Of a DNA stretch of 64,000 nucleotides, positions 17,287 to 50,033 are shown piece by piece (the stretch's first letter is position 1; every line of letters starts with the position of its first letter). A program made the translations under genes and the position numbers. The notes below the pieces were generated by a model. That model made no database searches. It was not told the DNA's origin and saw nothing but the letters and a program-made list of their open reading frames with translations. Source of the stretch: an uncultured Ignavibacteriaceae bacterium (GTDB lineage Bacteria; Bacteroidota; Ignavibacteria; Ignavibacteriales; Ignavibacteriaceae); contig CAVQQN010000030.1 in NCBI GenBank assembly GCA_963714775.1, positions 50,553 to 114,552 of the forward strand, written 5' to 3'.

Positions 17287-17311
17287 CTACTCCACCTTTA
17301 ATTTATATTTT

Positions 17312-18765
17312 CTAACGATTCAATAATTTATTTAACAATTCGGTAACACTAACTTTTGCAATACTGCTTGCATGATCAGACATTGCATAAGGAATTATAA
17401 GTTCATCTCCATGATATCGCACCGCCGCAGCTATAAACAACATTGGGCACATAACCTTCTCTTTCATTTTCATTTGGACTTAACAACGGTTCTTCTAATC
17501 GACCGAGAACTATTGATGGATCATTCTTATCCAATAAAAATGCGCCAATTGAATATTCGCGCATAGATCCTACACCATGACTTAAAACCAGCCATCCAGC
17601 TTCAGTTTCAATGGGCGAACCGCAATTACCAAGTTGTACAAATTCCCAGGGATATGTTGGTTTAAGAATTAATTGTTTAGTGTACCAGAAATGAAGATGG
17701 TCGGAGTACATTAAGAAAATATTTTCATTATCCTGTCTTGAGATCATTGCATAACGCCCATTAATTTTTCTTGGGAAAAGTGCCATCCCTTTATTCTTAA
17801 CTTCGGGTCCGTTTAATGTGCTAATTTTAAAATGTAGAAAGTCTTTAGTTTCCAGAAGTTGCGGAAAAATAACTCTACCATCATAAGCTGTATACGTAGC
17901 ATAATAAGTTCGTTGCCCATCATCATCAATAAACTCAACAAAGCGGGCATCTTCAATTCCATTTATTTCTGATGGTGAATGTGGGAAAATTACTCTCTCA
18001 GAAAGTCGTTGATCAGGAGAATATTGTATTTGATAATTTGAAAGTGCAAGAGATAATATTCCCTTTGCTGTTAAATCATTTTCATTTAGTTTATTTTTAA
18101 ATGGTCGGACTAAAATTTTTATACTTTCTTCAAGCTCAGTAATTGTAAAATTATCATCTAGACTGTTCAGTATTGTTTTAGCAAAATCATTCAGAAGATC
18201 CAGTTCAATTAGTTTTTTTTCAAAAAGCACTTTTTCAAAAACAGGATTGGTAATATTTTCTGAAGTAGTTACATATCTCGTTGGGGTAGTAATAGTAATT
18301 TTGTTTTCCTTATCAATTATTCCTAATCTAAAAGTAATAGATGAAATATGACCTTCTCCTGTAGCCCTTAGACTCAATATAAATCTTCGAGCTTCCTTCT
18401 GGTAAATCCGTTTGATCAGGATGCCAAACCATTGAAGGATTAAAAAGGGCAGCCGATTCAAGAGAATATTCTTGCGTGAAATAAGCACCAATTAATAATT
18501 TTCGTTCATCACTTAAAAGCTGGTCTGTTAATAAATACTTTTTCATCTGCTCATATCTGTTAAGATAAAAATCTCGCAGTCTTTGATGCCGTTCTTCAAA
18601 TTCCTTCATAACCTGTTTTAATTCTTTATTAACTTCCTTTTCGGAAAGAGTTAGAATTCTTCCAATAATTTTTATTATTCTTTCTTCGGAAGTGATTGTA
18701 AAAGGTCTGTAAAGAACTCTTTTATAATCAGGTTTAATTACTATCTTAGTTCTGGTTGCTTTCAT
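17312..18765 (-). pseudogene. GH130-related glycosidase with N-terminal extension, 2 frame breaks
   Basis: ORFs 18328-18765 and 17403-18491 overlap in different frames. The core reads IEDARFVEFIDDDGQRTYYATYTAYDG...GMALFPRKINGRYAMISRQD. The tail ..GDELIIPYAMSDHASSIAKVSVTELLNKLLNR reads in a third frame to the stop at 17312. Confidence 0.7.
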
Positions 18766-18816
18766 TTTATTATATCATTTGTTTATTAATCTTAAAATAT
18801 CTAACCGGTTTATTCC

Positions 18817-19630
18817 TTAATTCCAGTTGATGCCATACTTTGTATAAAATATTTCTGGAAGAATAAATATGCCAATCACTATTGGCAATGCAAGCATTAC
18901 TGCTGATGCAAGTTTTACACCTAATTGAGATTCAGCTCTTCCACCAACAGCAAACAAAGTAACAAGCTGCGGCATTGTCATTAAACTTTCATCACGAATT
19001 ACTATTAATGGCCACAGTACTTCATTCCATGAAGCCATAAAAGTTATTATTCCAATTGTTACAATCGCCGGCATTGAGTTTGGCCAGAGTATTCTAAATA
19101 TTATTTGCAGCTCATTACAACCATCAAGTCTTGCTGCATCAATTAGACTATCAGGAATTGATTTAAAATATTGTCTAAACATAATTATGCTTAGATGCAT
19201 TTATCAGATATGGAACTATTAACGCCCAATACGTATCAATCCAACCAAACTTTACCATAATAATATATTGTGGTATAAGTGTAATCTGGAATGGCAATGT
19301 CATTGTAAAAATTATTATGTAAAAAATTAAATTTCTTCCCTTGAAATCAAGTTTGGATAATGCATAACCAATCATCGAACCAAAAACTAAAACACCAATC
19401 GTGATTGAAGAAGCAACAATAAGACTATTAATAAATGCTCCACCTATTGGAATTTTATCAACCATCTGAGAATAACTATTTAAGGTTAGATGATGTGGGT
19501 ACAAGCGTCAAATTACCAATTTCATTTTCCGGTGCAATTGATGCCATCACCATCCAGTAGAATGGATATATAAATATTAATGCGCTTATAGCTAAGAGCA
19601 ATATAAAACAATATTGATTTAAATCTTTTC
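18817..19630 (-). pseudogene. Carbohydrate ABC transporter permease (MalG-like), frameshifted
   Basis: The pieces are 19175-19504 and 18817-19200. EAA-loop-like DAARLDGCNELQIIFRILWPNSMPAIV is present. An N-terminal TM segment is readable near 19520-19620. Confidence 0.7.
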
Positions 19631-20492
19631 AATGGTCTTTCTCAATAAATTTTTTCTGAATCATTATAACAGCTAAAATTATGAATGCAAAAAATAAACC
19701 TAATGTTGCAGCATATCCCATATGATAGTAGAAAAATCCTTGTTTATAAATATAAAGCACGGCCGATACTGTACTATTTAACGGTCCGCCACCTGTCATA
19801 ATATATGGTTCAATAAATAATGAGAATCCACCAATTGTTGATAGAATCACAACCATAAAAATTGTCGGATTAATCATTGGCAAAGTAATTTTGAAGAATT
19901 TTTGCAAATGAGTTGCACCTTCAAGATCAGCCGCTTCATAATATTGTGTTGGAACTGTTTGAAGCCCAACTAAAAATAGAACGATGTATAGTCCAACATT
20001 TTTCCATGTAGCCATAACTGCAATTGAAGCCATTGCAATATTTGGATCAGTTAACCAGCCTATTTTGCCAAGTCCAATCCCAATTAGTAATCTATTTAAA
20101 AGACCTGTATCATATCCATATAACTGCTGCCATAAAATTGTAACCACAACTCCGGAAACAATTACAGGAAGAAAAAATGCTCCTCTGAAAACTCCTCTTA
20201 ATTTAATTTTTTGATTTAATATTTCAGCAAGAAACAATGCAAAGATTATTTGAAGTGGAATATGAATAACTAAAAATATTAATTGTGTTCCCCATTGATT
20301 TTAAAAAAGTTTTATCGTTGAATAATCTTACATAATTATTCAACCCAGTAAATTCCATCGGAGAAATAATATTCCATTTGTGAAATGTAAGTACAATAGA
20401 AAATACCAACAGGAAATGCAACGAACAGAATAAAGTGAATCACATAAGGAGAAACTAGCAAGATAGGGTAATATTTTTTTTCTATTAATCAT
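19629..20492 (-). pseudogene. Carbohydrate ABC transporter permease (MalF-like), frameshifted near the N-terminus
   Basis: The 202-aa piece 19629-20237 contains AADLEGATHLQKFFKITLPMINP. The N-terminus MINRKKILPYL..VSPYVIHFILFVAFP is spread over two frames (20224-20492). Confidence 0.7.
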
Positions 20493-20499
20493 TTTATAA

Positions 20500-21800
20500 T
20501 AATCTATTTCAAGAAACAATAAATTAACTGCATCTGCTGCATCATTAATAGCTTGTTCTGGAGTTTTCATTCCGTAAACAACACAAGCCTCGTATTGCTG
20601 AGAAATTAAATCAAATATTTCTTTTAGCACCGGTGATGCATCAGTTCCTTTAACATATTCAGATTGATCAGCAAAGATTTTCATCTTTGGATTTTTTAAG
20701 AAATAATCATTAAAGAAAGGATTACTTATTAAGATTTTTTCTTCTTGGTAATTGATTTGTTAATGATAAAAGTTTCAGATCACCTTCTTCATCAATCATT
20801 GTCTTAATATAATTCCATGCAGCTTGCGGATTTTTACACGTTTTAAAGATTACAATATTTTTTGGATCACCATAAGTATAAACTGGTCCTGTATGATCAT
20901 CAGGTACAGGCATAAAAGAATATTCGTACTCAAAACCTTTTGGTTTGAATTTTTCAGCATGTGCAATTTCCCAGGGTCCGGTAAATCTTGTTGCTGTAAC
21001 ACCGACTTAAAAAAACATCCTGCCGTGCAGAAAGTTTTTCTTTAGAAAAATAATTTTTTTTATACATTTCTTGAAGAAAAGCAAAAACCTCAATCGCATA
21101 TTTATTATTAAAAGCTGCTTTATTATTTTTAACTAACGGTGCTCCACCAGAAGCAGCAAGATATAAAGGATAAAAATCAAAAAATCTTTGCCACCATGTT
21201 ACTTCAACTTCACTATAACCAAACCATCTGTCAACATATCCATCACCATCAAAATCTTTTTGAAATTTTTGTGATGCAGTGAAAACTTCACTGTAGGTTT
21301 TTGGAGGACCATGATAATTCCAATTCATTTATAAGATTAACATTATAAATCAGCATAATAGGATTGATCTTCCAGGGAATCTGGTAGATATGACCATCAA
21401 GTGATTTTATTTCTTCTACAACTGAACTATCACATCTCTCATAAATAAAATCATTAAATCCTTTAAGTGTATCAAGTGCGACTAAAACATCCTGCTTGAG
21501 CATAAGCTTCAACATCTCCCTGCCACATATTGGAATATATATCAGGAGTAGTTTTTCCCACAACTGCTGCAAGAATAATTTCTTCACTTGATCGTCCTTC
21601 AGGAACAGCCTGATATTTAACCTGATCATTTGGATTGTTCTTGTTCCATTCATCAGTAATATTTTTTGCAAATTTTATTTCATCAGAATTATTTGAACAC
21701 CAGTACAATATTTCATCACGAGAATTACTATTACTGCTGCTACAACTTATCAAAACAAAGTAAAGAATAGTACAATTACAATATGGAATAAAGTTTTCAT
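20500..21800 (-). pseudogene. ABC transporter extracellular solute-binding lipoprotein (family 1), frameshifted
   Basis: The ATG at 21800 gives MKTLFHIVIVLFFTLF, then LISCSSSNSN (lipobox Cys) in another frame. Colinear pieces are 21472-21825, 21288-21671, 20954-21328, 20722-20913 and 20340-20684. The exact stop is unclear. Confidence 0.65.
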
Positions 21801-21828
21801 CAGATTTTATTCCCAGCTTGCCCAATCA

Positions 21829-23334
21829 TTATCTATTGAAGGAAATGCTGGTCTTGGAATCAGATTTCCCCTCTTTAACAATATACATATCAATAGCATT
21901 TTTATCATTTTCAGATGATACTTTAATATTATCAAGTACATCTTTATTTATTGTAACTTTATATTTTTTTTTCAATTCAAGAATTTTATGAAGAATCGTT
22001 TTTGATAGTTTTTCACTTAAAAGTTCTGATTGAGATTTACTTTTTGCATCAACTAATTTTATTTCTTCAGAATTTAATGTAATTGAGTTTGCTAATTCGA
22101 TTTCTATAAGCACTATACGATATTTTATCTTTCCACCACTTAGATTGTTTAATAACCCAATTGCTTTTGTCATATCCTTTTTGAATCGCATGCTTAGTTA
22201 ATCAATTTATCTCTAACCATAAGCCAAACTAAATCTTCCAAGGATTTTGAGAACCCAGATCAAATCATCTTTTATAAACTTAATGTATTGCTCACGATTC
22301 CTGATACCAAATAATAAATTCATCTAATGAAGAAATATTCTTTGTTTTACATTCAACTAAAGTTAATCCTGGATATTTATCACTACGTTTTAATCCTAGA
22401 TTGGATAGTGCAACATCCAGTTTGTTATCTAACTCCCATTCAGAATATTTTTCAAGAGTAAGGACAATTTTTCCCAGATACGATCTGAAGAATATTAAAT
22501 GCATCACGTTTTATAATGGGATTTTCATTTGCAAAAAGACGGTTTACATACTGATCCGATAAAATATCCATCTTACTTTTTGTAATAGCTTAATCTGATT
22601 CATACTTAAGTTTTTCTATTCCGTTTCGATTTGAAATCAAATTTTCCAAATATTATCAATTTTAATTATGTACCATCCATCATCGGTATGAATTGGAGAC
22701 GATATACTTCCTGTTTTAAAGTATCAAGAATTTGTGCGAAGACAGGATTTTTTATATAGATATTGTACAAACTACTTTTCAGTCTGTCTGTCATCAACAA
22801 AAACAGAATCATTTAATTGCGTATAAAATAGTGAATCAAATGAAATAGAATTTTGTAACTGTTTGAGATATTTTTCAATGGACCGTTGGTTTTCTGAATA
22901 TACCCATCTGATCTTATATTCAATATGTTTCTTTTCTATAATTTTTTCTATTTCAGTTTCATTTATTTCTACTTTTGGTAATATTTCTTTTTGAATAATT
23001 CTTCGGCCGCTAAATCTGATTCAATATCATTAAAAACTCCCTTTGGATAATCCTTGCTCAATAATTTTCTTATCATACCTATCCAGTGCAAGAAGCTTTT
23101 CATTTATCATATATTTTAGGTGAGTTAGTCTTTAGAATTGTTTTTTCTTTTGGGAAATGCAGGTCCAAATTCATAACTGTAAAAAATTCTTCTGCCGTAA
23201 TTTTTAGAGTGTCCAATTTCTGCAACAATTTCATCTTTTTTAACTTATTTTGGTTATCTTTCAAAGAACAGATCCTGTGAGATAGTCTGATTGGTTAGAC
23301 TTAATAAAAATAATATAAGTAGAATTGTTTTCAA
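21829..23334 (-). pseudogene. SurA/PpiD-like parvulin-type peptidyl-prolyl isomerase (periplasmic chaperone), frameshifted
   Basis: My own minus-strand translation gives the signal peptide (TTG)KTILLILFLLSLTNQTISQ at 23334. A parvulin signature ..SSPIHTDDGWYIIKIDNIW.. lies near 22660-22720. The C-terminal pieces are 22292-22507 and 21829-22191. Confidence 0.55.
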
Positions 23335-23380
23335 TTATATTTCAAGAGAATTTTGAGAAAATATTTTTAAGACAGAACAA

Positions 23381-24436
23381 TTAAAATTTTATTCCTAATG
23401 AAAAATTGTGAACATTTTTTAAGCTCCCGAAATCCCTATAAGCATAATCAAAATTAACTTCTGCTGTACTCAAAAGCATATTGGAATTTACTCCTGCGCC
23501 AAAAGATAACCCGCCTTCAGCATCTTGCAGAAATAATGAATTATATCCGCCTCTCATACAATATATAATCTAATAATGAAAATTCAGCACCAACATTTAA
23601 ACTCTGGTAATCATTATTCGGTACTAAAGCATCAGCAGAAACTGTTAGTTTATAATCATCGTAATTAAATGCCTGGGTTGAAACCCCTATCTGAAAGTGA
23701 AGAGGCAGATCCCACGAATCCAATTCAATGTTAACAGGATATTTTCATTAGAGCCCTGCTTGGTTTCATCTACACGAATAAAATATCTTGCATCTCTGCC
23801 TTCAAGACGCATGTCTGTTCCGAAGTTTGATATCACCGCACCTATAGTCATTCCACCCAGAAATCTGTTTTGAATAGTGTTCCGGCATCAATTGCAAAAG
23901 CAGATGCGGTCATATGCCAGATAGATTGTTTTATATACTTTGCAGTTATTCCAACAGAAAATCTATCTGTTAGGTGTTTCGCATATGAAATACCAATCGC
24001 AATATCTCGGCACTAAAATTTTCGCCTGTTCCATCCGGTTGTTCAACCGTTCTTACTTTCATATCATCCATTGAAAGAGAAGTAAAACTAAAACCAAAAT
24101 TTCCAAAATCTCCTAACGGAATAATTAATCCTGCATAATCAAATTTTGTATCAGCTATCCAATCCAGTATGCACAAGTATTACTTCATACTTGATTAAGT
24201 TTGCAATTCCTCCTACATTCCAGTATAATGCTGAAGCATCATTTACCAAGACCAACAAATGCACCACCCATTGCATTAGCAGGAGCACCAACTCCAATTT
24301 CTAAAAAAGATGCAGCAGTTGTGCCAGTCTTTGAAACGTTTTGAGAATAGAAACTATGATTCCCAAAAAGAAAAACCAGAATAAATAAAAATATTTTTGA
24401 GCGAGTTATAATATTCAACATAACATCCTCTTGCAA
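23381..24436 (-). pseudogene. PorV/PorQ-family outer-membrane beta-barrel (T9SS shuttle-like paralogue), frameshifted
   Basis: The N-terminus reads MLNIITRSKIFLFILVFLFG..SQNVSKTGTTAASFLEIGVGAPANAMGGAFVGLGKDASALYWN. The C-terminus ..DYAYRDFGSLKNVHNFSLGIKF ends in an aromatic residue and is readable to the stop at 23381. The middle pieces are 23970-24176 and 23541-23723. Confidence 0.6.
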
Positions 24437-24459
24437 AAAATTTAAGCTTTTGAATTTTA

Positions 24460-27400
24460 TTATTTTATCACCGCAAACTTTCCTATTTTTTCACCAATAC
24501 CTGGTGCATCTACATGAAAAACATAAACTCCATAAGCTATATCCATTCCATCTTTAGAAACAAGATCCCAGCTTTCCTGTCCATCAGAAATTGTACTGGA
24601 GTGTTCAATTGTATCAACAAGTTTTCCACTAATAGTGTAAATATTTATTGTACATTCACTCGGCAGATGCATAAAATATATTCGTCTTTCGCCTCTTCCC
24701 ACTTCAGTTGAGGCTGGTTCCCACGATGCTGCACCAACATATGGATTAGGTACAACTGAAATATTATCCAATCGGACGTTAGCTTTGAATTTATCAAAAC
24801 TCTGACCTTTTAATGTAAACTCATAAAACTCACCTTTTCTAAATGGTTTTTTATTAACAACTTTAAATACATCCCCAACTTGAGGAGGCTTCTGATCTGC
24901 TTCAGCAATTGTAGTATCTTTAATTAAAGTAACAGACCAGCTTACATGCAGATTTGAAAAATTGGTGGCTGTTTTACCGAGTGAATCACCAAATACAAAA
25001 AATATTGCATCACCTTCATTAAATATTTTGATCCGTATTGGCATCACGAAAGATGAACTGAAAATGATCGTTCCCTCTGTAAGATTGTTTACAATTATAT
25101 TGGATTGAATTGGTTGACTAAAACCAGTAGCAGGAAATGATAAATCCCCTGCCCGGGTTCAGTAAATCTAATTTCAAAATCAGCAGGATAATCAATTTTT
25201 TTTCCGATATATGCTGCCTGATATCTTGAATCAAAACCAACCTGAACTATATAATTACTGCTTCCTGTAACCCAGCCGGTCTTCTCAAAATCAATCGTTA
25301 CTACAGTATCACTTTCAATATCAAAGTGAAATCCATCAATTACTGGAGTTTGATCTTCAACTCCACTTACTGTTTGCAAATTCAATAAAGTATCATCTTC
25401 TAAAACATTATATAATGAATATTCAGGATGTGCAGAATTATGATAAGGTAAATCATCAAAAAATTCTAATCTATAAGTATTAAAATTTTTAATCGAATCC
25501 GGATTAAGTATAGTAATTGAAATATTTCCGGTACCCGGACCGCTTCCTTCAAATGATGCAACTTCCGGAGCAAGATAACCTGCGGCAGGAGCTCTTGGAG
25601 TAATAACTGCAGTATTAATATCAGTAGTTATATTTCCATTAATATCTTTTTTAAGAATTGTTGTTGTTTCTGAAGGCGGAATACCTTCAAAAACCCCTTC
25701 AATATTAGTAGTAGCAAATCCTTGATCATATGCAGCAACAGCATAATAGTATGTCTGACCATTTTGAACTGTGGTATCAATAAAAGAATGTTTTAAACCG
25801 GAATCATCACCAAGATAAAACATTGCTCCATTAACATCTATAGGATGAAGTCCTTTAATTCCATCAATTAAATCAAACTGAGCAAGCGGTAATCTGAAAA
25901 CAGGTTTACCGTAAGCATCAGTAATAATTTTATTTTCAAGAAAATTTGGTTCTGTAGATCTGTAAATTCTGTACCCTTCAAAATTTATTCTCTGATAAAA
26001 TTCATCAAAAGTTTTTTCTGCACTGATCATCCCAGTAAAGAGTTACTTTATGATCACCAGGAACTGCAGTTAAGAATTGGTTTTTCCGGCGGTTTAGCAA
26101 AACGATAATTAGCATTATAAATTTGCTGAACTGTTTTCTTTCTTCTAAAAATCATCCTGTGTTAATTCCGAAAATCATTGACATTGAAAATCTTTCCGTC
26201 TCACCTTCTTCTTCAATTTGTCCTGTGGTAGTGGAATATGTATTTCTACCATTCATACTAAAAAGATAACTTGAGAAATAATTAGCTAGATTAACTCCCA
26301 CAAGTGATTGACCATGAGGGGCAGGTAATCCTGAAAGTACACCCCAGTTTTCTTCATCATTATCCAGTTCGTAAGTATGAACAGCATAAATTTTAAATCC
26401 TGTTAAACCCAATTGATCAGATTCATCTTTATCCAGAATTCCGAAATTTGGTTCTCCCTGGTCAGGTTTTCCATTACCTTCCGTTCCATCAATATCAGGT
26501 CCGGTATAGTTATCATCATAAGGACCTATTCCATCAGTTCCAACATCATCATTAAGTGACTCACCCTCATCCCAAACTCCATTTTCATTTAAATCAAAAA
26601 AAGTTCTCCAGTTAGCATTTTCATCAGCATCCCAATGATCTTTCCAGGAATAACCATAAAAATCAAAAAATTTTGTTGTATCCTGAAAAGGATTTCTAAG
26701 AAATGGATCCAGATTAGGATCAGTAATAAAATTAACCGGATTGTTATCCCTTTTTTCATCTGTAGGACCATCCGAATCATTATCAATTCCATCATCGGGA
26801 ACACCGGGACTTTCAAGAAAAGCATATCCGGCATATCCAACCGGACTCCAATTTCCGGGGCTTCCGAATGGTACCACTGACCAGGCATATGACATATCTA
26901 ATAATTCGTTGTAATCGCCGGCATTATTTGAAGAATTATCGTGTCCACCAATTCCCCAATCAACATATTGAGCAAATAAAGTTTTGTCATAATCATAAGT
27001 GCCCATATTTGTAATTTCATAATACCAGAAGATTACATCTTCAGCTAATACCTGAGACCATTGAAAACCACGGGCTCTAACCTGCATGGCTAATCCCCCC
27101 CTTGTGGAATCATCTGCATCGGGCATAAAATTATTTCTCAGAAGATATTCCCTGTCCTCATCATCGTCAAACACAAAATAAGTTTCAACATCAGCATTAA
27201 AAATACCCTTGCCAAAAAATCCATTCCAGCTATTATCCCAGTCAACAGGTCTATCGGGCCAGGTAAGAGGCCAGGTATTTGGATCATCACTTCGTGCAGG
27301 GGAACTACTAAACTGCCCTGCATACCCTGGCAACGGCCACCAACCATACGTTACACCAGTAGAATTATCGTAGCGAGTAAACTCATAGTAATTTGATTCA

Positions 27401-27716
27401 AGAGGATGAATTAATATTTCCAGCTGGGTCATTTGCTTCGGCCTGTACAATAATAGCAACTCCATCCACATAAGTGTGATTAGTGCCTTTTGGCCAAACT
27501 CCGCTTCGGCTTGGTTCATTCTGCCAGTCTGCAATTTCACCAAAGTTGTAATAAACAGTAGCAGCAAGATTTCCATCCATGAAACCTTTTTTTGTCTGAT
27601 TGTGGTCTCCTTTGTTCTTATCAACAATCCTCTGACCAATTAGTCAGATTAGTGCTGATAATAAATGCTGCCACTACTATCGTTATAAAACTGAAACTAT
27701 TTTTTGGTATCGACAT
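24460..27716 (-). pseudogene. Large (~1080 aa) secreted Asp-rich Ca-binding protein with FlgD/T9SS-like C-terminal domain, function unknown; frameshifted
   Basis: The ATG at 27716 gives MSIPKNSFSFITIVVAAFIIS (signal-like). Thrombospondin-type-3-like loops include DDGIDNDSDGPTDE and DLNENGVWDEGESLNDDVGTDGIGPYDDNYTGPDIDGTEGNGKPDQGE. The C-terminus reads IYTISGKLVDTIEH..WDLVSKDGMDIAYGVYVFHVDAP..GKFAVIK. The pieces are 26152-27639, 25095-26030 and 24460-25047. Confidence 0.55.
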
Positions 27717-27739
27717 TTTTACTCCAATAAATAGATAAA

Positions 27740-30506
27740 CTAAAATGAAAAATCAGCACCTAGGACAATTTGTCTTGGTGATGAATAAAAATCTGGTCTT
27801 GTAAAATATTCTTTGATTGTATTTACACCTCTTGGCGCTGTCTGATTTCGAGTTAGCTCCAATGTATCTCCTGCTCTTCCCGTATCACCAAAAACATTTA
27901 ACTTCATTTAAGGTATCAAATAAATTATAATATCTTTACGAAATACTGATAATTGATTACCAGCATAATTCAAAATACTTAGTTACATAAAAATCTACAT
28001 CATAAAAAGCCGGTCTGTTATCACTGTTTTCAAGTCCTGTTCTTTGATTTTGTAAAGATGGAGTATAAGGTAATCCTGATCCAAGTCTTCCAATAAAACT
28101 TGCAATATAATCTCCCGGTACTCCAAGCGTTAAAGTAAGATTGAGTGAATGCGTTCTGTCCCAGTCTAAAGGTACCAGTTGTTTATTCGACTTCAATTGG
28201 TGGATTTGATTGCGCATTATTAAATGCTGCATTAGGATCCGAAGCACTGCCTTTTGCGATTTGAAAAGTATAATCCAATGTTGCACCAATACCATCGCAT
28301 AAATCTTTTTTCAAAAGATAAAGTTATACCTTTTACAGAACCATAATCTTTATTAATAAGTCTTACTGAATTTTTTGAATTCATTTTTAATAAATATTTC
28401 TGATGCCAGTAAATTTCTTATATCTTTATAATAACCTGTGATAGTAATTCCTAATTCATCAGTTAAAGCTTGCTGCAAACCTATTTCATACATAATGGTT
28501 TGTTGCGGTTCAAGATCTGCATTTCCAATCGTGTTGCCAATATTTTCCGGAAAATCACCGGTAAGCGGAATTCTGAAATTAGGATTACGATATAAATATT
28601 CAAATGGAGGGATCTGGAAAAAATGACCATAAGAAATATGAATTGCACCTTTATCTGATATTGGATAAGATAATCCAATGCGTGGACTTATTTGAGATTT
28701 AGGTTTAGCTGCTTACTAACAATGAGTCTGGAAATGGAGGTTGAAGTTCATCTAAAAGATTAATCTTATTTGGATCTTTTAAATATGTACCATCAGGTTC
28801 GAAATAATCATATCTTAGACCAACATTAACTATTAAATAATCAATTTCAATTTTATCCTGAACGTAATATGCAATGAAGACTGATAATGGGATTGATATG
28901 CTTGATATGTATTAAAGTTAAAAGCACCGGCTTGACTGGTATCTTTGGTTTAAAGTTCGAAGATGCATCAATAATTATTTGAAAATCTTCATACTTCAAA
29001 TCATGAATATGTAAAATCAAGTCCTGTTTTAATTTGGTTAATATTATCAATCTGCCAGGTAAAATCCGATTTTCCAGTAATAGCTTGTTGTAGTATGATT
29101 AAAATGCCAGTTCTCTGTACCACCAGTCAGAAATGCATTTCCGCTAACATCCTGTTTTCTGTCTGGATTAACATACGATACCGGAGATAGGCTCTCCTGC
29201 AGTGTTGTAATACGCATAATGTCAAATGGATCTTCAAAAACATATTGTTTAAACTCTGATCTGCAGACCTGACAAAGAAAAATCTATAAACGCCGAATTA
29301 CTCAATAACAAAGTATAACTTGCTATACCTAAAAAACTTTTTTGATACTTTTTATAATCACCATCAGGATTTAGTCTATAAATATGATCATAATCTCTGT
29401 ATTTATTATCCTGATAAAGACCTGATAGTACAAACCTTTACCGCCGCCAACATTTAATGCTAGCTTTACCTTGTAAGGATAATCTTTCTATTAAAGTTCA
29501 TTGGTACATATGCTTTATCACCCGTAGATCCGACATACCAGTCTGCAGAATTATTTGCAGAAAAATTTGATGAATCTGAGGGATTAAAAATTCTTTGACC
29601 ATATATAGCACCGTCATCATAGTTATATCTTCCGGATAAGAAAAATTTTAGCAAAATTTTCGATTCCAGGAATCGGACCGCTAAAATTACCCTGTATCAT
29701 TATAAACATTGGCAGGACTTACATGATCTATATTCGTAAAGATACTCGTTATGCGAACTGACATAATCACCTAGAATAAAAAGAAATATTCCCATCTAAT
29801 TTATCACCAGCTATTTTTGTTACCTGATTTACAACTCCTGAAAGGCTTCTCCATATTCAGCATTGAATGTTCCGGTTAGCACCTGAACTTCTTCAATACT
29901 ATTAACTTCTGCTGATAAGTGATGATTGACCTGAGTAAACATCATTAACAGCAACACCATCGATCAAGATATTTAACTTCATTACTTCTTCCGCCTCTAA
30001 AGTGTCCATCAACAACACCAGCTTGTAGATTTACAACAGCAGAAACATCTTCAAGAGGAAGCATTGAAATATTATCACCACTTATTGTTTCTTCTGTAGA
30101 TGTAAGATCTTTTCTAACTAAAAGTTTTTCAGCAGTAACAACAACATCAGCTAATTCAATTGATTCCGGATCTTAATTCAAAATCAAATTTTGTTGTTTG
30201 ATCTACTGGAAACTCTTACTTTCTGAATTGTAAATGATGAATATCCAATCATTGATGCTTTTACTTGATATTCACCTGGAGGAATATTTAGTATAAAATA
30301 ATTTCCATCTATATCTGCAGAAGCTCCAAGTGTAGTACCGAGAATAATTATATTAGCTCCTAATAAGAGCTTCACCTGTAGCTCTTATCAATTATTTTAC
30401 CTGCAATTTTTCCTGTTGTTCCGGCATAAATCAATGTTCCCATCAGGAAGATTAATATATTGACTGAAGAAGCAAATACTTTATTACAATTAGTAATAGT
30501 GAACAT
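27740..30506 (-). pseudogene. TonB-dependent receptor with N-terminal CarboxypepD_reg domain (SusC-like architecture, no SusD partner), heavily frameshifted
   Basis: The ATG at 30506 is preceded by AGGTGGA. The sequence GKIAGKIIDK..GANIIILGTTLGASADIDGNYFILNIPPGEYQVKASMIGYSSF is followed by a plug-like VVVTAEKLLVRKDLTSTEETISGDNISMLPLEDVSAVVNLQAGVV. The C-terminus ..YSSPRQIVLGADFSF reaches the stop at 27740. Confidence 0.65.
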
Positions 30507-30609: not shown

Positions 30610-33172
30610 TTAAGCAGTAATCATTTTTTTGGTCATGATGAAAATTACCAGCTGTCTAATCTGATAGAAATATAGTTCCGCTTGAAACTTTATTGCCATA
30701 ATTGTTATCACCATTCCACTGTACTTATAATTCCAGTATTCTGTTCGCTGTTAATCAAAGTTTTAACTTCACGTCCTAGAATATCATAAATCTTTAAAGA
30801 AACAAATGAAACTATTTGGTATTGAGTAACTGATCATGGTACTTGGATTAAAAGGATTTGGATAATTCTGGAGATAAATTATGATTACTGGTCGGAATTC
30901 ATTCTCAACACTATATCAGTTACTCCATTTTTCTTTATCTTCTAACTAATCCATATAAACTGTACCCTGGAATCTTCCCAACGGATGTAATCTTACTGAA
31001 ATTGATATTGCGTCTCACCTGTTCCGGTACAACTACATCAACATAAAACTGTGTCCAGTCAAATGATGTTGCATTAGGAAATCCAATGGAATATCGACTT
31101 GCCAGCATACTGTCCCCAGCCTTCATTGTTGCCAATTGTGTTATGGAATATTGGAGTTATTGCTACACTCCATGCATCACCTACTGCTACTACTGAATCA
31201 GGTTCCAGGTTCATTCCTTTTATCCATACACTTATTCTTAGATATATCTCCAGGCAACTAACATCCGGCTTAGTATGCATATTTTCTAGTACCAACAAAT
31301 CCATCACGTCGTACCCTACAGGTATGTCAAATTTCAATGAATAGTTTCCATTATATGCTTCTTCATCTGTTATCTCTAGTGTTTTCATATCCTGCATTTA
31401 ACACTCCATCATTTCCTCCAATTGGGGGCAACCAGTAAAACCAGCCTGTCGGTACTCCTACCTGTGTGTTCCAATCCTGTCCTAACCAGCCTCTCGCGTC
31501 CGTTCAGTACAAATATCATCTGCCCATACTGTTCCTGTTGCATCTTTTCCGCCTACAAATCTGATTATTGTTTTCCAGGAATCTTCCGGTAAGACTTATT
31601 TCACCTACTGCTTGTTGTATCTGCTACCCAGCCTGTTGTGCTTGCTACACTTTGATCTAATTCGAATTTCTTCTCACCTATTAACGCTTCCATTCTCTCT
31701 ATAGAATGAATAACTTACATACCATTTCTGATCTTCCGTTGTCGGGTTTGTGTTTACTCCTGATGTCATATAGTACATTCCCATATTCTATATCTACATT
31801 CTCAAAATGTTTCTCAGACCACAAATCACACATATTCTCTGACTCCCACATTGCTGCTTCTGATGTTGCTGTCTTTGTTATCTTCAGTGATTTGCCCATT
31901 GAACGAGACTCATCTGTTGCCCAGCTTAATGTTGATCCGATTGGTTCTGCTCCCTTTGTCCAGTATGATGGCAATGCTTGTTCGAAACTGCCTATCTCAC
32001 TTATTGTTGGAATATCTAACTTTTCTACTGTTAGATCATCCATATAAACAGTTCCCTGAGAATCTTCCTAAAGGATGTAATCTTACTGAAATGATATTGC
32101 AGTTTCACCAACGCGGATCCGGTACGTACATCTACATAAAACTGTGTCCAGTCAAATATGTTGCATTAGGAAATTTCAATGGAATATCGACTTGCCCATA
32201 CTCGTCCCCAGCCTTCATTGTTGCCAATTGTTTATGGAATATTGGGGTTATTGCTACACTCCATGCATCACCTACTGCTGCTGCTGAATCAGGTTCCAGG
32301 TTCATTCCTTTTATCCATACACTTATTCTCAATACATCACCCGGTATAGCCTTAACAGGTTCATATTTTCTTGTTCCAACAAATCCATCATGTGAACCTA
32401 CAGGTATATCAAATTTTAATGAATAATTTCCGTTATGAGCATATTCATCAGTTACAATAGTGTTTTCATATCCCTGATTTAACACTCCATCATTTCCTCC
32501 GATTGGCGGCAACCAGTAGAACCATCCTGTCGGTACACCTAACTGTGTATTCCAATCCTGCCCTGCCCAGCCGTCTCTGCCTACAAATAAATAATCATCT
32601 GTCCATACTGTTCCTGTTGCATCTTTTCCGCCTACAAACCTGATTATTGTTGTCCAGGAATCTTCTGGTAAGACTATTTCACCTATGAATGTTGTATCTG
32701 CTACCCAGCCCGTTGTGCTTGCTACACTTTGATCCAATTCAAACTTCTTATCTCCTATTAAGCTTCCATCCTCTCTGTAGAATGAATAACTTACATACCA
32801 TTTCTGATCATCAGTTGTCGGGTTGGTATTTACTCCCGATGTCATATAATACATTCCGAATTTTATATCTACATTCGCAAAATGTTTGTCAGACCACAAG
32901 TCACACATATTTTCTGACTCCCACATTGCTGCTTCTGAAGTTGCAGATTTTTCTATCTTCAGAGATTTTCCCATTGAACGAAACTCATCTGTTGCCCAGC
33001 TTAATGTTGAACCGATTGGTTCTGCTCCTATTGTCCAGTATGAGGGCAATGTTTGCTCGAAACTGCCGATCTCATTGATTCCACTCTGAGCCTGCACTGG
33101 AATTTGAACTATTATCAACGTGATGGCAAATAAACCTATCCACCATCGAGAAATGTTGCTAATCATATTCAT
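30610..33172 (-). pseudogene. Secreted protein with two tandem ~364-aa CBM-like (jelly-roll) repeats and a T9SS C-terminal sorting domain; repeat 1 intact, the rest frameshifted
   Basis: ORF 32132-33172 carries a signal peptide (WWIGLFAITLIIVQIPVQAQS) and repeat 1. Repeat 2 is in pieces (31699-32043, 31074-31397, 30935-31135). The CTD QNYPNPFNPST... reads on the minus strand at 30610-30870. The repeat junction reads ..GTVYMDDLTVEKLDIPTISEIGSFEQALPSYW. Confidence 0.6.
30930..33090. repeat. Two-copy tandem direct duplication, period 1092 bp, high nucleotide identity
   Basis: cttcattgttgccaattgt occurs at 31121 and 32213, an offset of 1092. Long colinear near-identical stretches run across both copies. 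The protein pair IGSFEQALPSYWTKGAEPIGSTLSWATDESRSMGKSLKI and IGSFEQTLPSYWTIGAEPIGSTLSWATDEFRSMGKSLKI matches closely. Confidence 0.9.
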
Positions 33173-33197: not shown

Positions 33198-34211
33198 TTA
33201 ATTATTGATTATTTGAACTTTAATGCTACCAGAAATATTCTCATCAGAAAAAATGCTCGTTATATCATTTAGATAAATTTGTTTTGTAAGTAATTCTTTT
33301 ACACTAATTGTTTTGTTTACTAATAGCTCAACAGCTGATTTGAATGTAAAAGGATTAAGAAATGAACTGAAAATCTTCAACTCATTTTGAAAAAGATATT
33401 GAAGATTTAAAGTTACGTTCTGATCTTTTGGAGCAAGACCGAATATAACCACCTTACCTCCTTTACCAACAATTTTTATTGCATAGTCTACAGTGGGACT
33501 GCTACCAACACATTCAATAACAACATCCACTTGTGAATTGGTCAATTCTTTAATCTCTTCAAATGTTTTTTCATCGTGTGGATTTAACGAATTATCAGCA
33601 CCTAGTTCAATTCCTAATTTTTGTTTATATAAATCCGGTTCAACTAAAATAATTTTTGCTGCACCTGAATTTCTTACCAGCTGAACCATTAGTAACCCAA
33701 TTGATCCGCCTCCGATAATGACCACCGTATTTCCTGGTTTAATATCTGCATGTTCAATACCTCTTAAGCAGCAGGAGAGTGGTTCAGAAAATGCAGCGAT
33801 GGACAGATCAAATTCGGGTGGAAGAATATAAGCCTGAGAAGCCGGAACGATAGAGTACTCCGCGAATCCACCATTCATCGATACTCCAAGAGCGTTAAGG
33901 TTTTCACAGAAATTAACCATCCCATTTCTACAATAATCACAATGACCGCAATAAATATTTGGATCAACTGCAACTTTATCCCCGATATTAAATTTAGAAT
34001 CCAAATCACCTTTCTCGATAATAATGCCGCTAAATTCATGACCAAGTATAACTGGAATGCTTGAGGGTGCCTTACCTTCATAAATATGTCTGTCGGTACC
34101 ACAAACGCCACAACAAGCTACCTTAATTAGAAGCTCATCTTTATCTAATGTTCGCAAGGGATAATCACTTAGAACAATATTTTTATTTCCATTAAATACT
34201 GCAGCCAGCAT
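33198..34211 (-). CDS. Zn-dependent medium-chain alcohol/polyol dehydrogenase (sorbitol/threonine dehydrogenase-like)
   Basis: Motifs include CGVCGTDRHIYEGK, GHEFSGII, structural Zn cysteines CGHCDYCRNG and the NAD fold VVIIGGGSIGLL. The ORF is an intact 337 aa. Confidence 0.85.
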   Translation of the reverse strand: MLAAVFNGNKNIVLSDYPLRTLDKDELLIKVACCGVCGTDRHIYEGKAPSSIPVILGHEFSGIIIEKGDLDSKFNIGDKVAVDPNIYCGHCDYCRNGMVNFCENLNALGVSMNGGFAEYSIVPASQAYILPPEFDLSIAAFSEPLSCCLRGIEHADIKPGNTVVIIGGGSIGLLMVQLVRNSGAAKIILVEPDLYKQKLGIELGADNSLNPHDEKTFEEIKELTNSQVDVVIECVGSSPTVDYAIKIVGKGGKVVIFGLAPKDQNVTLNLQYLFQNELKIFSSFLNPFTFKSAVELLVNKTISVKELLTKQIYLNDITSIFSDENISGSIKVQIINN

Positions 34212-34217
34212 ATTATT

Positions 34218-49500: not shown

Positions 49501-50033
49501 ATATTTTACCGGAAAGCTGTAAACGTAATCCGCTGCTAAGAGAAAAATCTTTTGTTGTTCCAACGGTAAATCCTCTAACTATTGTTCCGCTCTTTTGCAT
49601 TCCGGAACCAAATATGGCATCGGGAGATAAACCACTTGATGTTGATGTAAGAACACTAACTAGTATCGCCAAATCTTTCGTCATACTTAATTTCCAGATT
49701 TCTTCGTTTATATTCTTTTTTTAATGATAATTTAAGAGAACGGTAAGTGACAATAAGTGTGTCAAAAATTGAATATGGCAGTGAATCAGATAAAGTGAAA
49801 TATCCAAGAGAATATTTAATTGAATAATCTGATGAGTTAAGCTTTATATTCTTAAGAAAAATTGATTCGGAATTTGGGAGTATGTTTACTTGTGATATTG
49901 TGTATTGATTATGAAAATTAATTACCAATGTGTCAGTAATGAAAATGGAATTGTAATCGTTTTGTCCTCTGTTATCTGTAAACCAAAAACAAAGAATAAC
50001 GAAAATGATATTAAGATATTTAATTGATTTCAA
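46559..50033 (-). CDS. Large (~1158 aa) outer-membrane beta-barrel protein of unknown function; probably one gene with a frame break near 49670
   Basis: ORF 49656-50033 supplies the only signal peptide (MKSIKYLNIIFVILCFWF). The 1041-aa ORF 46559-49684 has none and overlaps it by 29 nt. The C-terminus ..AKAEARAYF ends in an aromatic residue. Long amphipathic beta-strand patterning is visible. Confidence 0.55.

What the first reader, a model, noticed from the sequence alone, without database searches (positions are those of the whole stretch)
21829..30506. SusD-less outer-membrane module: TonB-dependent receptor, ~1080-aa Ca-binding CTD protein, PorV/PorQ-like barrel, SurA-like PPIase
Four consecutive co-directional genes sit inside the glycan locus. 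The first is a SusC-architecture TonB-dependent receptor (CarboxypepD_reg plus plug plus barrel, 27740-30506), and no SusD/RagB gene accompanies it. The second is a large secreted protein (24460-27716) with thrombospondin-type-3-like Asp-rich Ca-binding loops and a FlgD/T9SS-like C-terminal domain. The third is a PorV/PorQ-family barrel (23381-24436). The fourth is a parvulin-type periplasmic chaperone (21829-23334). In the Bacteroidota T9SS, PorV binds CTD cargo and shuttles it from the translocon to the attachment complex. A locus-embedded PorV paralogue next to a CTD-bearing giant protein and a TBDR suggests a dedicated arrangement. In that arrangement the barrel would hold the Ca-binding protein at the surface as the glycan-capture partner of the TBDR, making it a functional alternative to SusD. 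I am not aware of an experimentally characterised system of this composition. That judgement comes from my memory, not from a search.
Basis: inference. Interest (0 to 1): 0.75.

Follow-up and report, generated by a model that had tools for sequence, protein, structure and literature searches.

The report
SusD-free outer-membrane glycan uptake module
A TonB-dependent receptor, an unannotated ~1,080-residue secreted protein and a dedicated PorV/PorQ-type barrel form a strictly conserved, multi-copy gene trio in sugar-utilisation loci of Ignavibacteria and allied phyla, and it is probably their uncharacterised counterpart of the Bacteroides SusC/SusD uptake complex.

Summary
The four genes are at the stated coordinates on the minus strand, but 57 single-base frameshifts break them, so they had to be stitched. 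Conserved residues are kept (213/216) and only one in-frame stop occurs, so these look like sequencing errors, not gene decay.

- **Family assignments.** The receptor has CarboxypepD_reg, Plug and barrel domains but is not SusC/RagA (63 vs 368 bits). The barrel is a PorV/PorQ-family protein (202 bits, cutoff 90) but not an equivalog of PorV, PorQ or PorV2. The fourth gene is SurA/PrsA-like.
- **The large protein.** It belongs to an unnamed family with 4,590 50%-identity clusters. It has a supersandwich N-domain with DxDxDG loops, an FN3 domain, variable β-sandwiches and a highly conserved C-terminal domain. That domain is homologous to T9SS CTDs and closest to those of PorU and PorZ.
- **Conservation.** In 80 loci from several FCB-type phyla, the receptor lies directly upstream in 58/60 and the barrel downstream in 71/73. 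The three proteins co-diverge (r 0.88–0.94). Paralogous trios sit beside different glycan genes, and no SusD appears.

The best model is a surface partner of the receptor, anchored by its retained CTD to the cognate barrel. That mechanism is inferred, not shown. No description was found in the literature searched.

The parts
27743..30506 (-). TonB-dependent receptor, ~915-932 aa, with CarboxypepD_reg-like N-domain, Plug and 22-strand-type barrel. It carries 27 frameshifts in this window.
   Evidence: Pfam CarbopepD_reg_2 and TonB_dep_Rec_b-barrel hit window fragments. The intact orthologue L001:7172-9970 has CarbopepD_reg_2, Plug and barrel. It is not SusC/RagA: TIGR04056 gives 63-79 bits against a 368 cutoff, and only on the N-terminus.
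24460..27716 (-). Large secreted protein, ~1,082 aa, 8 frameshifts, belonging to an unnamed family. It has a Sec signal peptide without a lipobox, and Gln at about +1.
   Evidence: Stitched. It is 86-87% identical to P0001. The family has 4,590 clusters at 50% identity. There is no Pfam hit. The AF2 model has pLDDT 84.6.
26090..27640 (-). N-terminal domain of the large protein (aa ~27-540), a beta-supersandwich.
   Evidence: The AF2 model of the domain alone has pLDDT 86.8 and pTM 0.86. Foldseek best matches are the supersandwich domains of GH94, GH149, PL26 and GH63, with TM no higher than 0.33 and E 1e-4.
26407..26811 (-). Asp-rich loop region (aa ~301-435) with DxDxDG-type putative Ca-binding loops.
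   Evidence: Motifs DNDFDG, DLNENG and DPDIDG are present, and 47% of residues are D/E/N/G. D309, D311, D313 and E318 are invariant across the family. The region is mostly coil in the model.
25610..26075 (-). FN3-like domain (aa ~545-700), the second most conserved segment.
   Evidence: Secondary structure. The family profile hits an Fn3-like PDB chain, 3mpc. Conservation score 0.56.
24766..25609 (-). Variable beta-sandwich domains (aa ~700-975), the least conserved part of the family.
   Evidence: Mean top-residue frequency is 0.32-0.41, against 0.54-0.63 elsewhere. The model shows beta-sandwiches.
24463..24765 (-). C-terminal CTD-like beta-sandwich (last ~101 aa), with a conserved ~12-residue insertion after the NPY motif. 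It is the most conserved part of the family.
   Evidence: Sequence. Conservation 0.63. hhalign against type-A CTDs of neighbouring cargo gives 97.2%, E 3e-11. The best PDB and NCBIfam hits are the PorU and PorZ CTDs. TIGR04183 gives only 13 bits against a 23 cutoff.
23381..24436 (-). PorV/PorQ-family (FadL-type) outer-membrane barrel, ~346 aa, 6 frameshifts.
   Evidence: The stitched window protein scores NF033709 at 202 bits (cutoff 90). PorQ gives 94/220, PorV2 82/325 and PorV 67/250, all below their equivalog cutoffs. PDB PorV 6h3i_F matches at E 1e-5.
21807..23334 (-). SurA/PrsA-like periplasmic chaperone with a degenerate parvulin domain, ~505 aa, 16 frameshifts and one in-frame stop.
   Evidence: Mapping. 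The family profile hits SurA 1m5y at E 8e-25, and also PrsA and HP0175. Rotamase_2 is found in 24/27 family members and SurA_N_3 in 9/27. The window's own clade gives only weak hits.
30619..33172 (-). T9SS type-A CTD cargo protein directly upstream of the TBDR. The rest of the protein is of unknown function and contains an internal duplication. The gene is frameshifted.
   Evidence: tblastn mapping. The orthologue L001:4477-7041 scores TIGR04183 at 42.5 bits (cutoff 23), and hits FlgD_ig and Por_Secre_tail. A CTD protein is present in 58/80 loci.
33198..35270 (-). Zn-dependent alcohol dehydrogenase (33198-34211) and LacI-family regulator (34218-35270) at the head of the locus. Both are intact.
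   Evidence: ORFs. tblastn gives 67% and 76% identity to L001 orthologues.
16384..21825 (-). Downstream uptake and catabolism genes: SBP_bac_1 solute-binding protein (~20508-21825), ABC permeases (~18800-20400) and two GH130 mannoside phosphorylases (17403-18491, 16384-17286).
   Evidence: tblastn for the SBP. Pfam BPD_transp_1 and Glyco_hydro_130. The same order is seen in L001, L003, L084, L085 and L086.

Best explanation
The TBDR, the ~1,080-aa protein and the PorV/PorQ-family barrel together form a three-component outer-membrane module for TonB-dependent import of oligosaccharides. Ignavibacteriota, Calditrichota, Marinimicrobia, KSB1 and Rhodothermales-type bacteria use it where Bacteroides would use SusC/SusD.

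Proposed steps:
1. The large protein is exported by Sec. It has a signal peptide and no lipid anchor.
2. It is taken across the outer membrane through its T9SS-type C-terminal domain.
3. That domain is not cleaved. It stays docked on the cognate barrel encoded immediately downstream, as the PorU CTD stays on PorV and the PorZ CTD on PorQ.
4. The conserved supersandwich/Ca-loop N-domain and the FN3 domain sit on or next to the TBDR. The variable middle beta-sandwich domains provide glycan specificity. Together they capture oligosaccharides released by the neighbouring T9SS-anchored surface enzyme or binding protein.
5. The TBDR imports the oligosaccharide. In this locus it then passes to an SBP-dependent ABC transporter and to cytoplasmic GH130 phosphorylases, under LacI control. 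This is a beta-mannoside/mannan-type locus.
6. The SurA-like protein is an accessory periplasmic chaperone for the module.

What is shown: the gene content, the family assignments, conservation of the trio, co-divergence, association with glycan loci, and CTD homology. What is inferred: surface localisation, CTD retention, barrel docking, contact with the TBDR, and glycan binding.
For: - **Synteny.** In 80 loci from at least six phylum-level groups, the TBDR is directly upstream in 58/60 testable loci and the PorV-like barrel downstream in 71/73. All are on the same strand, with median gaps of 13-14 bp.
- **Copy number.** Several copies occur per genome or contig: L008+L051, L023+L079, and two tandem trios in L071.
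- **Co-divergence.** Pairwise distances of the three proteins correlate at r = 0.88-0.94 over 56 trios. Same-genome paralogues are 36-47% identical in all three, and orthologues 63-68%.
- **Glycan context.** The orthologous clade always sits with LacI, SBP_bac_1, permeases and GH130. Paralogous trios sit with GH3 (13/80 neighbours), SSF symporters (10), LacI-type regulators, GH94, GH16, GH13, glucoamylase and GH92. No SusD is seen in the annotated loci.
- **Barrel.** It is a PorV/PorQ-family member (198-202 bits) and resembles PorV 6h3i.
- **C-terminal domain.** It is the most conserved segment family-wide and is homologous to type-A CTDs. Among all PDB sequences the best hits are the PorU and PorZ CTDs. 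NCBIfam's best hit is the C-terminus of the PorU model. Foldseek ranks PorZ first and PorU seventh. PorU and PorZ CTDs are retained and bind PorV and PorQ (PMC10202324).
- **N-domain.** The fold resembles the supersandwich domains of GH94, GH149, PL26 and GH63.
- **Conservation pattern.** The ends are conserved and the middle is variable, which fits fixed protein partners plus a variable ligand.
- **T9SS cargo in the window.** Canonical type-A CTD cargo is present. T9SS genes are reported in Ignavibacteriota and Rhodothermota (PMC11285876).
Against: - There is no experimental or complex-modelling evidence. AlphaFold-Multimer was not available.
- The CTD fails the TIGR04183 cutoff (13 vs 23 bits).
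- The PorU and PorZ hits are weak (E 0.004-0.07), and the Foldseek full-length TM-scores are ~0.07-0.1.
- The N-domain fold match is weak (TM 0.33, 7% identity), and no known CBM was detected.
- Co-divergence and synteny would also arise from simple co-inheritance of an operon.
- Two loci (L014, L050) carry the large protein without the TBDR or the barrel.
- The barrel could instead serve the neighbouring CTD cargo.
- All four genes are frameshifted in this window, so function in this particular genome depends on those being sequencing errors.
Confidence: 0.6

Rival explanations
1. The barrel is a locus-specific T9SS shuttle or anchor for the neighbouring type-A CTD enzymes. The PorV paralogue would keep the locus's secreted glycanase or binding protein beside the TBDR. 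The large protein would then be one more T9SS cargo, a surface glycan-binding protein or scaffold attached by the normal PorU/A-LPS route rather than through the barrel.
For: A canonical CTD protein is encoded next to the trio in 58/80 loci. Examples are the orthologous loci with CBM_4_9/FlgD_ig or Laminin_G_3 proteins. PorV is known to bind many cargo CTDs (PMC10202324).
Against: The CTD cargo genes vary in number, position and domain content, whereas the large protein is invariably adjacent to the barrel with a gap of ~14 bp. Its CTD is far more conserved (61% mean column identity in A6) than the cargo CTDs (45% in A7). It co-diverges with the barrel at r = 0.88. Its CTD resembles the retained PorU/PorZ type.
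Confidence: 0.2
2. The large protein is itself a surface enzyme, a new glycoside hydrolase or lyase fold, or a protease, that acts on the substrate before uptake.
For: The N-domain's nearest structural neighbours are all carbohydrate-active enzymes: GH94, GH149, PL26 and GH63. Many acidic residues are invariant.
Against: The matched parts of those enzymes are their non-catalytic supersandwich domains, and TM is at most 0.33. The N-domain is conserved across paralogues that sit in loci for different glycans, including GH130, GH3/GH16, GH13 and GH92, which argues against substrate-specific catalysis. No Pfam or NCBIfam catalytic family is hit. No conserved Cys/His pair of the PorU type appears among the invariant columns listed.
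Confidence: 0.1
3. The module is not an importer. The TBDR might act as an Oar-like exporter of the large protein, or the trio might be a general outer-membrane or S-layer-type structural unit that merely lies next to sugar genes.
For: The receptor is not a SusC/RagA family member. From general knowledge, CarboxypepD_reg-TBDRs of the Oar type have been linked to protein secretion in Myxococcus. The large protein is unusually well conserved, at 71-86% identity within Ignavibacteriales.
Against: Paralogous copies are consistently embedded in different catabolic glycan loci with regulators, inner-membrane sugar transporters and GHs. Several divergent copies per genome argue against a single housekeeping structure. 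A Plug domain is present.
Confidence: 0.05
4. In this particular genome the locus is a decaying pseudogene cluster, so the module is real in relatives but non-functional here.
For: There are 57 frameshifts in 8.7 kb, and the frameshift-rich stretch (~4.5-33 kb) coincides with the glycan locus while flanking genes are intact. The indels are not homopolymer-linked.
Against: There is only one in-frame stop among ~2,850 codons. The window protein keeps 213/216 near-invariant family residues and is 87% identical to the closest orthologue. Neutral decay that produced 57 indels should also have produced many nonsense and radical substitutions.
Confidence: 0.1

Closest known systems
SusC/SusD (RagA/RagB) glycan uptake pairs of Bacteroidota polysaccharide utilisation loci
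   Same: A TonB-dependent receptor with an N-terminal CarboxypepD_reg-like domain is encoded immediately next to a dedicated extracellular partner. The pair is multi-copy per genome. Each copy sits in a locus with regulators, surface enzymes and glycoside hydrolases for one glycan.
   Different: The receptor fails the SusC/RagA model (63-79 vs 368 bits). The partner is not a TPR-fold SusD lipoprotein. It is a ~1,080-aa beta-rich protein with no lipobox and with a T9SS-type CTD. A third obligatory component, a PorV/PorQ barrel, is present. Inner-membrane uptake here uses an SBP-dependent ABC transporter.
T9SS attachment-complex pairs PorU-PorV and PorZ-PorQ (P. gingivalis)
   Same: A large multidomain surface protein has a C-terminal Ig-like CTD that is retained and docks on a 14-strand FadL-type PorV/PorQ-family barrel (PMC10202324). 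The best sequence and structure hits of the large protein's CTD are the PorU and PorZ CTDs. The barrel is a PorV/PorQ family member.
   Different: No homology to PorU or PorZ exists outside the CTD/Ig parts. There is no C25 peptidase domain and no PorZ beta-propellers. The barrel is not an equivalog of PorV, PorQ or PorV2. The pair is multi-copy, fused in an operon to a TBDR, and lies in catabolic loci rather than being a single secretion-system component.
Type-B CTD cargo with adjacent cognate PorP/SprF-like barrels (e.g. SprB-SprF in Flavobacterium)
   Same: The principle is the same: a specialised CTD protein is encoded next to its own PorV-like barrel, which handles or anchors it and may protect the CTD from cleavage (PMC10202324).
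   Different: The CTD here is related to type A and to PorU/PorZ, not to type B, and no TIGR04131 hit is listed. The barrel scores as PorV/PorQ family and shows no PorP/SprF hit in the NCBIfam output. The known pairs serve gliding adhesins and have no TBDR partner.
BamG-BamH in the Bacteroidota BAM complex
   Same: A FadL-type 14-strand barrel serves as a membrane anchor or pillar for an extracellular protein (PMC12611786, PMC12578637).
   Different: BamH is a surface lipoprotein with no CTD. That complex functions in outer-membrane protein assembly, not nutrient uptake. No sequence relationship was tested here.
TBDR-only carbohydrate utilisation loci (CUT loci / 'PUL-like' clusters) of Proteobacteria
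   Same: These are SusD-less glycan loci built around a TonB-dependent receptor with GHs, regulators and inner-membrane transporters. This comparison rests on general knowledge.
   Different: Those loci have no conserved large surface partner and no PorV-type barrel, and their hosts lack T9SS.

Membership tests
SusC/RagA TonB-linked outer-membrane proteins (TIGR04056) | Full-length match to the family model above its curated cutoff (368 bits) | tested here: not met
   The stitched window TBDR scores 62.9 bits and the L001 orthologue 79.3 bits. Both match only model positions 2-118, the N-terminal extension.
SusC/RagA TonB-linked outer-membrane proteins (TIGR04056) | Domain order CarboxypepD_reg-like N-extension, then Plug, then barrel | tested here: met
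   Pfam CarbopepD_reg_2 (79.5 bits), Plug (35.2 bits) and TonB_dep_Rec_b-barrel (95.7 bits) in L001:7172-9970. Window fragments also hit.
Canonical PUL (SusC/SusD-defined) | An adjacent SusD/RagB-family lipoprotein gene | tested here: not met
   No SusD/RagB Pfam family appears on any gene within +/-10 kb in the five annotated intact loci. None appears among the 25 most frequent families of 80 neighbours of paralogous trios. Rarer families in that census were not displayed.
PorV/PorQ family (NCBIfam NF033709) | Score above the subfamily cutoff (90 bits) over the full model | tested here: met
   Window stitched protein 202.3 bits over model positions 1-326/326. Orthologues score 198 and 200 bits.
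T9SS PorV proper (NF033710), PorQ (NF033711), PorV2 (NF052325) | Score above the equivalog cutoffs (250, 220 and 325 bits) | tested here: not met
   66.7, 94.4 and 82.2 bits respectively. It is a distinct subfamily.
T9SS type-A C-terminal sorting domain (TIGR04183 / PF18962) | Match above the curated cutoff (23 bits) | tested here: not met
   13.1 bits, E 0.07. No Pfam Por_Secre_tail or FlgD_ig hit.
T9SS type-A C-terminal sorting domain (TIGR04183 / PF18962) | Homology of the C-terminal beta-sandwich to bona fide CTDs | tested here: met
   hhalign of the family C-terminus (A6) against CTDs of neighbouring cargo (A7) gives probability 97.2%, E 3.4e-11 over 55 columns. AF2 predicts a C-terminal beta-sandwich.
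T9SS cargo | Secretion dependent on SprA/Sov-PorV; CTD cleaved or retained | not testable with these tools
   This needs secretion assays or proteomics. T9SS core genes of this genome lie outside the window. Canonical CTD cargo is present in the window.
PorU sortase (NF033707, peptidase C25) | Full-length match with a C25 catalytic domain and Cys/His dyad | tested here: not met
   Only the last ~50 residues match, at 18.7 bits against a 420 cutoff. There is no Peptidase_C25 Pfam hit. The PDB PorU match is confined to its CTD.
SurA/PrsA parvulin-type chaperones | PPIC-type rotamase domain plus SurA-like N-terminal chaperone domain | tested here: met
   At family level, the A8 profile hits SurA 1m5y at E 8e-25. 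Rotamase_2 is found in 24/27 members and SurA_N_3 in 9/27. The window's own clade scores below Pfam cutoffs (22.6 vs 27 bits), so PPIase activity there is doubtful.
Thrombospondin type 3 repeats (PF02412) | HMM match to the TSP_3 repeat | tested here: not met
   There is no Pfam hit on the large protein. Only generic D-x-[DN]-x-[DN]-G loops are present: 3 in P0001 and a median of 2 per family member.
Carbohydrate-binding modules / glycan-binding fold | Recognisable CBM family or demonstrated glycan binding | tested here: inconclusive
   No Pfam CBM was hit. The N-domain resembles galactose-mutarotase-like supersandwich domains of GH94, GH149, PL26 and GH63 at TM no higher than 0.33. CAZy/dbCAN models were not available.

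The most novel reading that the evidence does not exclude
This would be a third, previously unrecognised architecture for TonB-dependent glycan import. The receptor's extracellular partner is not a lipoprotein. It is a large protein delivered by the T9SS and held in place by a retained, PorU/PorZ-like CTD docked on its own FadL/PorV-type barrel, giving a stable three-protein outer-membrane complex. Each complex would be duplicated and specialised for one glycan. It would be the dominant uptake device of SusD-poor FCB phyla (Ignavibacteriota, Calditrichota, Marinimicrobia, KSB1, Rhodothermales), and a direct functional link between type IX secretion and nutrient uptake.
Probability: 0.45. Interest if true: 0.9.

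Novelty: new variant of a known kind. Interest (0 to 1): 0.78.

Why it matters
SusC/SusD explains glycan capture in Bacteroidia. How the sister phyla that degrade polysaccharides in sediments, hot springs, groundwater and the ocean take up glycans without SusD is largely undescribed.

This trio is a concrete, very widespread candidate. Every member listed by the homology searches that carried a source name was called a hypothetical protein.

If the model holds, three things follow:
- PUL-prediction tools that key on SusC/SusD pairs would be missing a whole class of loci.
- PorV-family barrels would gain a role outside secretion proper.
- T9SS would be tied mechanistically to nutrient import.

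Cultured carriers or close relatives exist, such as Rosettibacter firmus (P0114). The Rhodothermus marinus xylan locus Rmar_1069-1073 looks like another instance. The hypothesis is therefore directly testable.

Tried and rejected
- **Fragment scans.** Pfam on individual window ORF fragments of the large protein and the barrel gave nothing. Stitching, or using intact orthologues, was necessary.
- **PorU homologue idea.** I first suspected that the large protein plus the barrel were a divergent PorU-PorV pair. This was rejected for full-length homology. Only the CTD matches, no C25 domain is present, and the family is multi-copy in catabolic loci.
- **Full-length Foldseek.** The whole AF2 model returned only low-TM (~0.07-0.1) matches to FN3/Ig chains, so it was uninformative apart from PorZ and PorU ranking high. 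A separate N-domain model was needed.
- **PDB sequence searches.** The large protein, the upstream cargo and the TBDR have no informative solved relatives.
- **Homopolymer hypothesis.** Frameshifts are not linked to homopolymers: the runs at indel sites are 1-3 nt. Pseudogene decay was judged unlikely.
- **Literature.** Ten full-text searches found no description of this trio. The only trace is the unannotated Rmar_1070-1072 genes in PMC6987092. Their membership of these families was not verified by sequence.
- **A mistaken memory.** I recalled a PorV-like BAM subunit. The papers show that BamG is a FadL homologue and that the authors do not consider it to have a PorV-like function. It is kept only as an analogy.

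Full report

The region 21.8-30.5 kb contains no long ORF, because the sequence is riddled with frameshifts. I stitched the large protein by hand. I then aligned intact orthologues to the window DNA with a frameshift-aware dynamic programme.
- TBDR, 30506-27743, 27 frameshifts
- large protein, 27716-24463, 8 frameshifts
- PorV-like barrel, 24436-23384, 6 frameshifts
- SurA-like protein, 23334-21810, 16 frameshifts and one stop

The indels are single bases and are not tied to homopolymers. Only one in-frame stop occurs in about 2,850 codons. The window's large protein keeps 213 of 216 near-invariant family residues and is 87% identical to its closest orthologue. I therefore read the frameshifts as sequencing or assembly errors, not decay. 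It is still odd that the error-rich stretch (~4.5-33 kb) coincides with the glycan locus, while LacI, the ADH and the 40-64 kb part of the window are clean.

**2. What are the four products?**

*TBDR.* It has CarbopepD_reg_2, Plug and TonB_dep_Rec_b-barrel domains. It is not a SusC/RagA family member: it scores 63-79 bits against a cutoff of 368, and only the N-terminal extension matches. It has no close solved relative.

*Barrel.* The stitched window protein scores 202 bits on NF033709, the PorV/PorQ family (cutoff 90). It is below the equivalog cutoffs for PorV, PorQ and PorV2. Its best PDB hit is F. johnsoniae PorV, 6h3i.

*Fourth gene.* On its own it gives only sub-threshold parvulin hits. 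A profile of 27 family members hits SurA at E 8e-25, and also PrsA and HP0175. Of those members, 24/27 carry Rotamase_2.

*Large protein.* It has no Pfam or NCBIfam family and no solved sequence relative.

**3. The large protein family**

The family is very large and unnamed. Homology search found 1,924 proteins at 90% clustering, and the top 120 are 71-86% identical to the stitched window protein over the full length. A library-wide search found 4,590 clusters at 50% identity with E ≤ 1e-3, of which 636 have E ≤ 1e-30. Lengths are about 1,000-1,600 aa. Every listed hit that a source names is called 'hypothetical protein'.

An AF2 model built on 104 sequences has pLDDT 84.6. It shows the following parts:
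- a signal peptide with no lipobox, with Gln26 at least 90% conserved at the predicted mature N-terminus
- an N-terminal beta-rich domain, aa 27-540
- a long acidic coil, aa 300-435, with DxDxDG-type loops whose Asp/Glu residues are invariant
- an FN3-like domain, aa 545-700
- two or three beta-sandwiches, aa 700-975
- a C-terminal beta-sandwich

The N-domain modelled alone has pLDDT 86.8 and pTM 0.86. It has only weak structural neighbours, all of them the supersandwich domains of carbohydrate-active enzymes: GH94, GH149, PL26 and GH63, with TM no higher than 0.33.

Conservation is highest in the C-terminal domain (0.63), the FN3 domain (0.56) and the N-domain core (0.54). It is lowest in the middle beta-sandwiches (0.32-0.34).

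**4. The C-terminal domain**

Its sequence has the look of a type-A CTD, with a conserved ~12-residue insertion after the NPY motif. It fails TIGR04183 (13 vs 23 bits). However, a profile-profile comparison with bona fide CTDs from neighbouring cargo gives 97.2% probability, E 3e-11.

Three independent searches point to the same two proteins:
- NCBIfam's best hit is the C-terminus of the PorU model.
- Foldseek ranks PorZ first and PorU seventh.
- Profile searches of all PDB sequences, with either the C-terminal domain or the whole family, return the PorU and PorZ CTDs as the best CTD hits.

Each of these signals is weak. Even so, PorU and PorZ are exactly the T9SS proteins whose CTDs are not cleaved and stay bound to PorV and PorQ (PMC10202324).

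**5. Conservation of the arrangement**

The best 80 loci come from Ignavibacteriota, Calditrichota, Rhodothermales, Neomarinimicrobiota, Stahlbacteria and other FCB-type MAGs.

I classified ORFs with jackhmmer profiles seeded from the intact L001 locus. The results were:
- The TBDR is directly upstream in 58/60 testable loci.
- The PorV-like barrel is downstream in 71/73.
- All are on the same strand, with median gaps of 13-14 bp.

The exceptions are few. L031 has the SurA-like gene inserted. L046 reads giant-giant-TBDR-barrel. L014 and L050 are true orphans.

Several contigs hold two trios: L008/L051, L023/L079, and a tandem pair in L071. Distances among 56 complete trios correlate at r = 0.88-0.94 between the three proteins. 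Same-genome paralogues are about 36-47% identical in all three, and orthologues about 63-68%. The module therefore duplicates and diverges as a unit.

The SurA-like gene (28/80 loci), an SBP_bac_1 gene (30/80) and a canonical CTD protein (58/80) are frequent neighbours, but their positions vary.

**6. Genomic context**

Orthologues of the window's trio (43-86% identity, from Ignavibacteriales to Calditrichota and Bacteroidota MAGs) always lie in the same locus type. Its gene order is LacI, sometimes a Zn-ADH, a CTD protein, the TBDR, the large protein, the barrel, sometimes the SurA-like gene, SBP_bac_1, two permeases, and GH130. The window has the same order. It is therefore a beta-mannoside/mannan-type locus.

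Neighbours of more distant paralogues are enriched in GH3 (13 of 80), SSF symporters (10), LacI-type regulators, ABC permeases, GH94, GH16, GH13, glucoamylase and GH92. No SusD appears in any annotated locus.

**7. Mechanism**

The conserved ends and variable middle, the obligatory adjacency to a PorV/PorQ barrel, the PorU/PorZ-like and unusually conserved CTD, and the glycan-locus context all fit one model. The large protein is a T9SS-delivered surface partner of the TBDR. Its retained CTD anchors it to its cognate barrel, and it captures oligosaccharides for import.

The known precedents are the PorU-PorV and PorZ-PorQ pairs and the type-B CTD cargo with cognate PorP/SprF barrels (PMC10202324). 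More loosely, BamG-BamH is also a FadL-type barrel holding an extracellular protein (PMC12611786, PMC12578637). T9SS genes are reported in Ignavibacteriota and Rhodothermota (PMC11285876), and canonical CTD cargo is present in this window.

Surface location, CTD retention, docking on the barrel, contact with the TBDR and glycan binding are all inferred.

The rivals are:
- the barrel serves the neighbouring CTD enzymes
- the large protein is an enzyme
- the module exports rather than imports, or is structural
- the locus is dead in this genome

Each is weighed in the rival-explanations section.

**8. Novelty**

Ten full-text searches found no description of this composition. The Rhodothermus marinus xylan locus lists Xyn10A (CTD), TBDR Rmar_1070, hypothetical Rmar_1071 (CTD), hypothetical Rmar_1072 and hypothetical Rmar_1073 (CTD), without comment (PMC6987092). 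It looks like the same module, but I could not verify this by sequence.

I rate the finding a new variant of known kinds. It combines TBDR-centred glycan loci with cognate pairs of a CTD protein and a PorV-like barrel, and that combination is so far uncharacterised and very widespread.

Noticed in passing
window ~4500-33200: The frameshift-rich stretch coincides almost exactly with the glycan locus, from the GH94-like gene at 6567-7364 to the CTD cargo at 30619-33172. LacI, the ADH and the whole 40-64 kb part of the window have intact long ORFs. The indels are single bases and are not homopolymer-linked. The cause of such patchy errors is unexplained; strain heterogeneity or a low-coverage long-read region are possibilities.
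   Followed up: partly
window 30619-33172 (-); L001:4477-7041: The gene directly upstream of the TBDR encodes a bona fide T9SS type-A CTD protein (TIGR04183, 42.5 bits in the orthologue). The remaining ~750 aa are an internal tandem duplication (aa 1-378 resemble aa 392-741) with no Pfam or PDB relative. It is possibly a new surface mannan-binding or mannan-cleaving protein.
   Followed up: partly
window 57442-62160 (-): An intact 1,572-aa ORF has a type-A CTD and a weak G8 domain hit. It lies in a GC-rich island (GC 0.41-0.45, against 0.30-0.35 for the rest of the window), which may indicate horizontal acquisition.
   Followed up: no
window 46559-49684 (-): An intact 1,041-aa ORF has no Pfam family at E ≤ 1e-4.
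   Followed up: no
window 52912-54393 (+) and 54677-56152 (-): Two class-I Glu/Gln-tRNA synthetase paralogues lie convergently next to each other. One has the GluRS-type Anticodon_2 domain and the other has GlnRS-type tRNA-synt_1c_C domains.
   Followed up: no
L014:5411-11231 and L050:5521-11247: Two Ignavibacteriales loci carry an orphan large protein, 67-70% identical to P0001, without a TBDR or a PorV-like barrel. It is preceded by an ~825-aa protein with no Pfam hit and a Laminin_G_3/PKD CTD protein, and followed by a MalK-like ABC ATPase. GH2 is nearby.
   Followed up: partly
L071 (two tandem trios); L046:622-10250: Rearranged or duplicated modules exist. L071 has two complete TBDR-giant-barrel trios back to back. 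L046 has two giant genes (42% and 29% identical to P0001) followed by the TBDR and then the barrel.
   Followed up: no
Rhodothermus marinus Rmar_1069-Rmar_1073 (PMC6987092, Table 1): The published xylan locus lists Xyn10A (CTD), a TonB-dependent receptor, a hypothetical protein (CTD), a hypothetical protein and another hypothetical protein (CTD), next to a separate SusC/SusD pair. The order matches the module described here. If so, one organism would carry both systems in one locus. This was not verified by sequence.
   Followed up: partly
window 42548-44918 (+): A second TonB-dependent receptor barrel is unrelated to the module. ORF 43383-44918 hits PF00593 at 131 bits. It is preceded by a 262-aa ORF that may be its frameshifted N-terminal part.
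   Followed up: no
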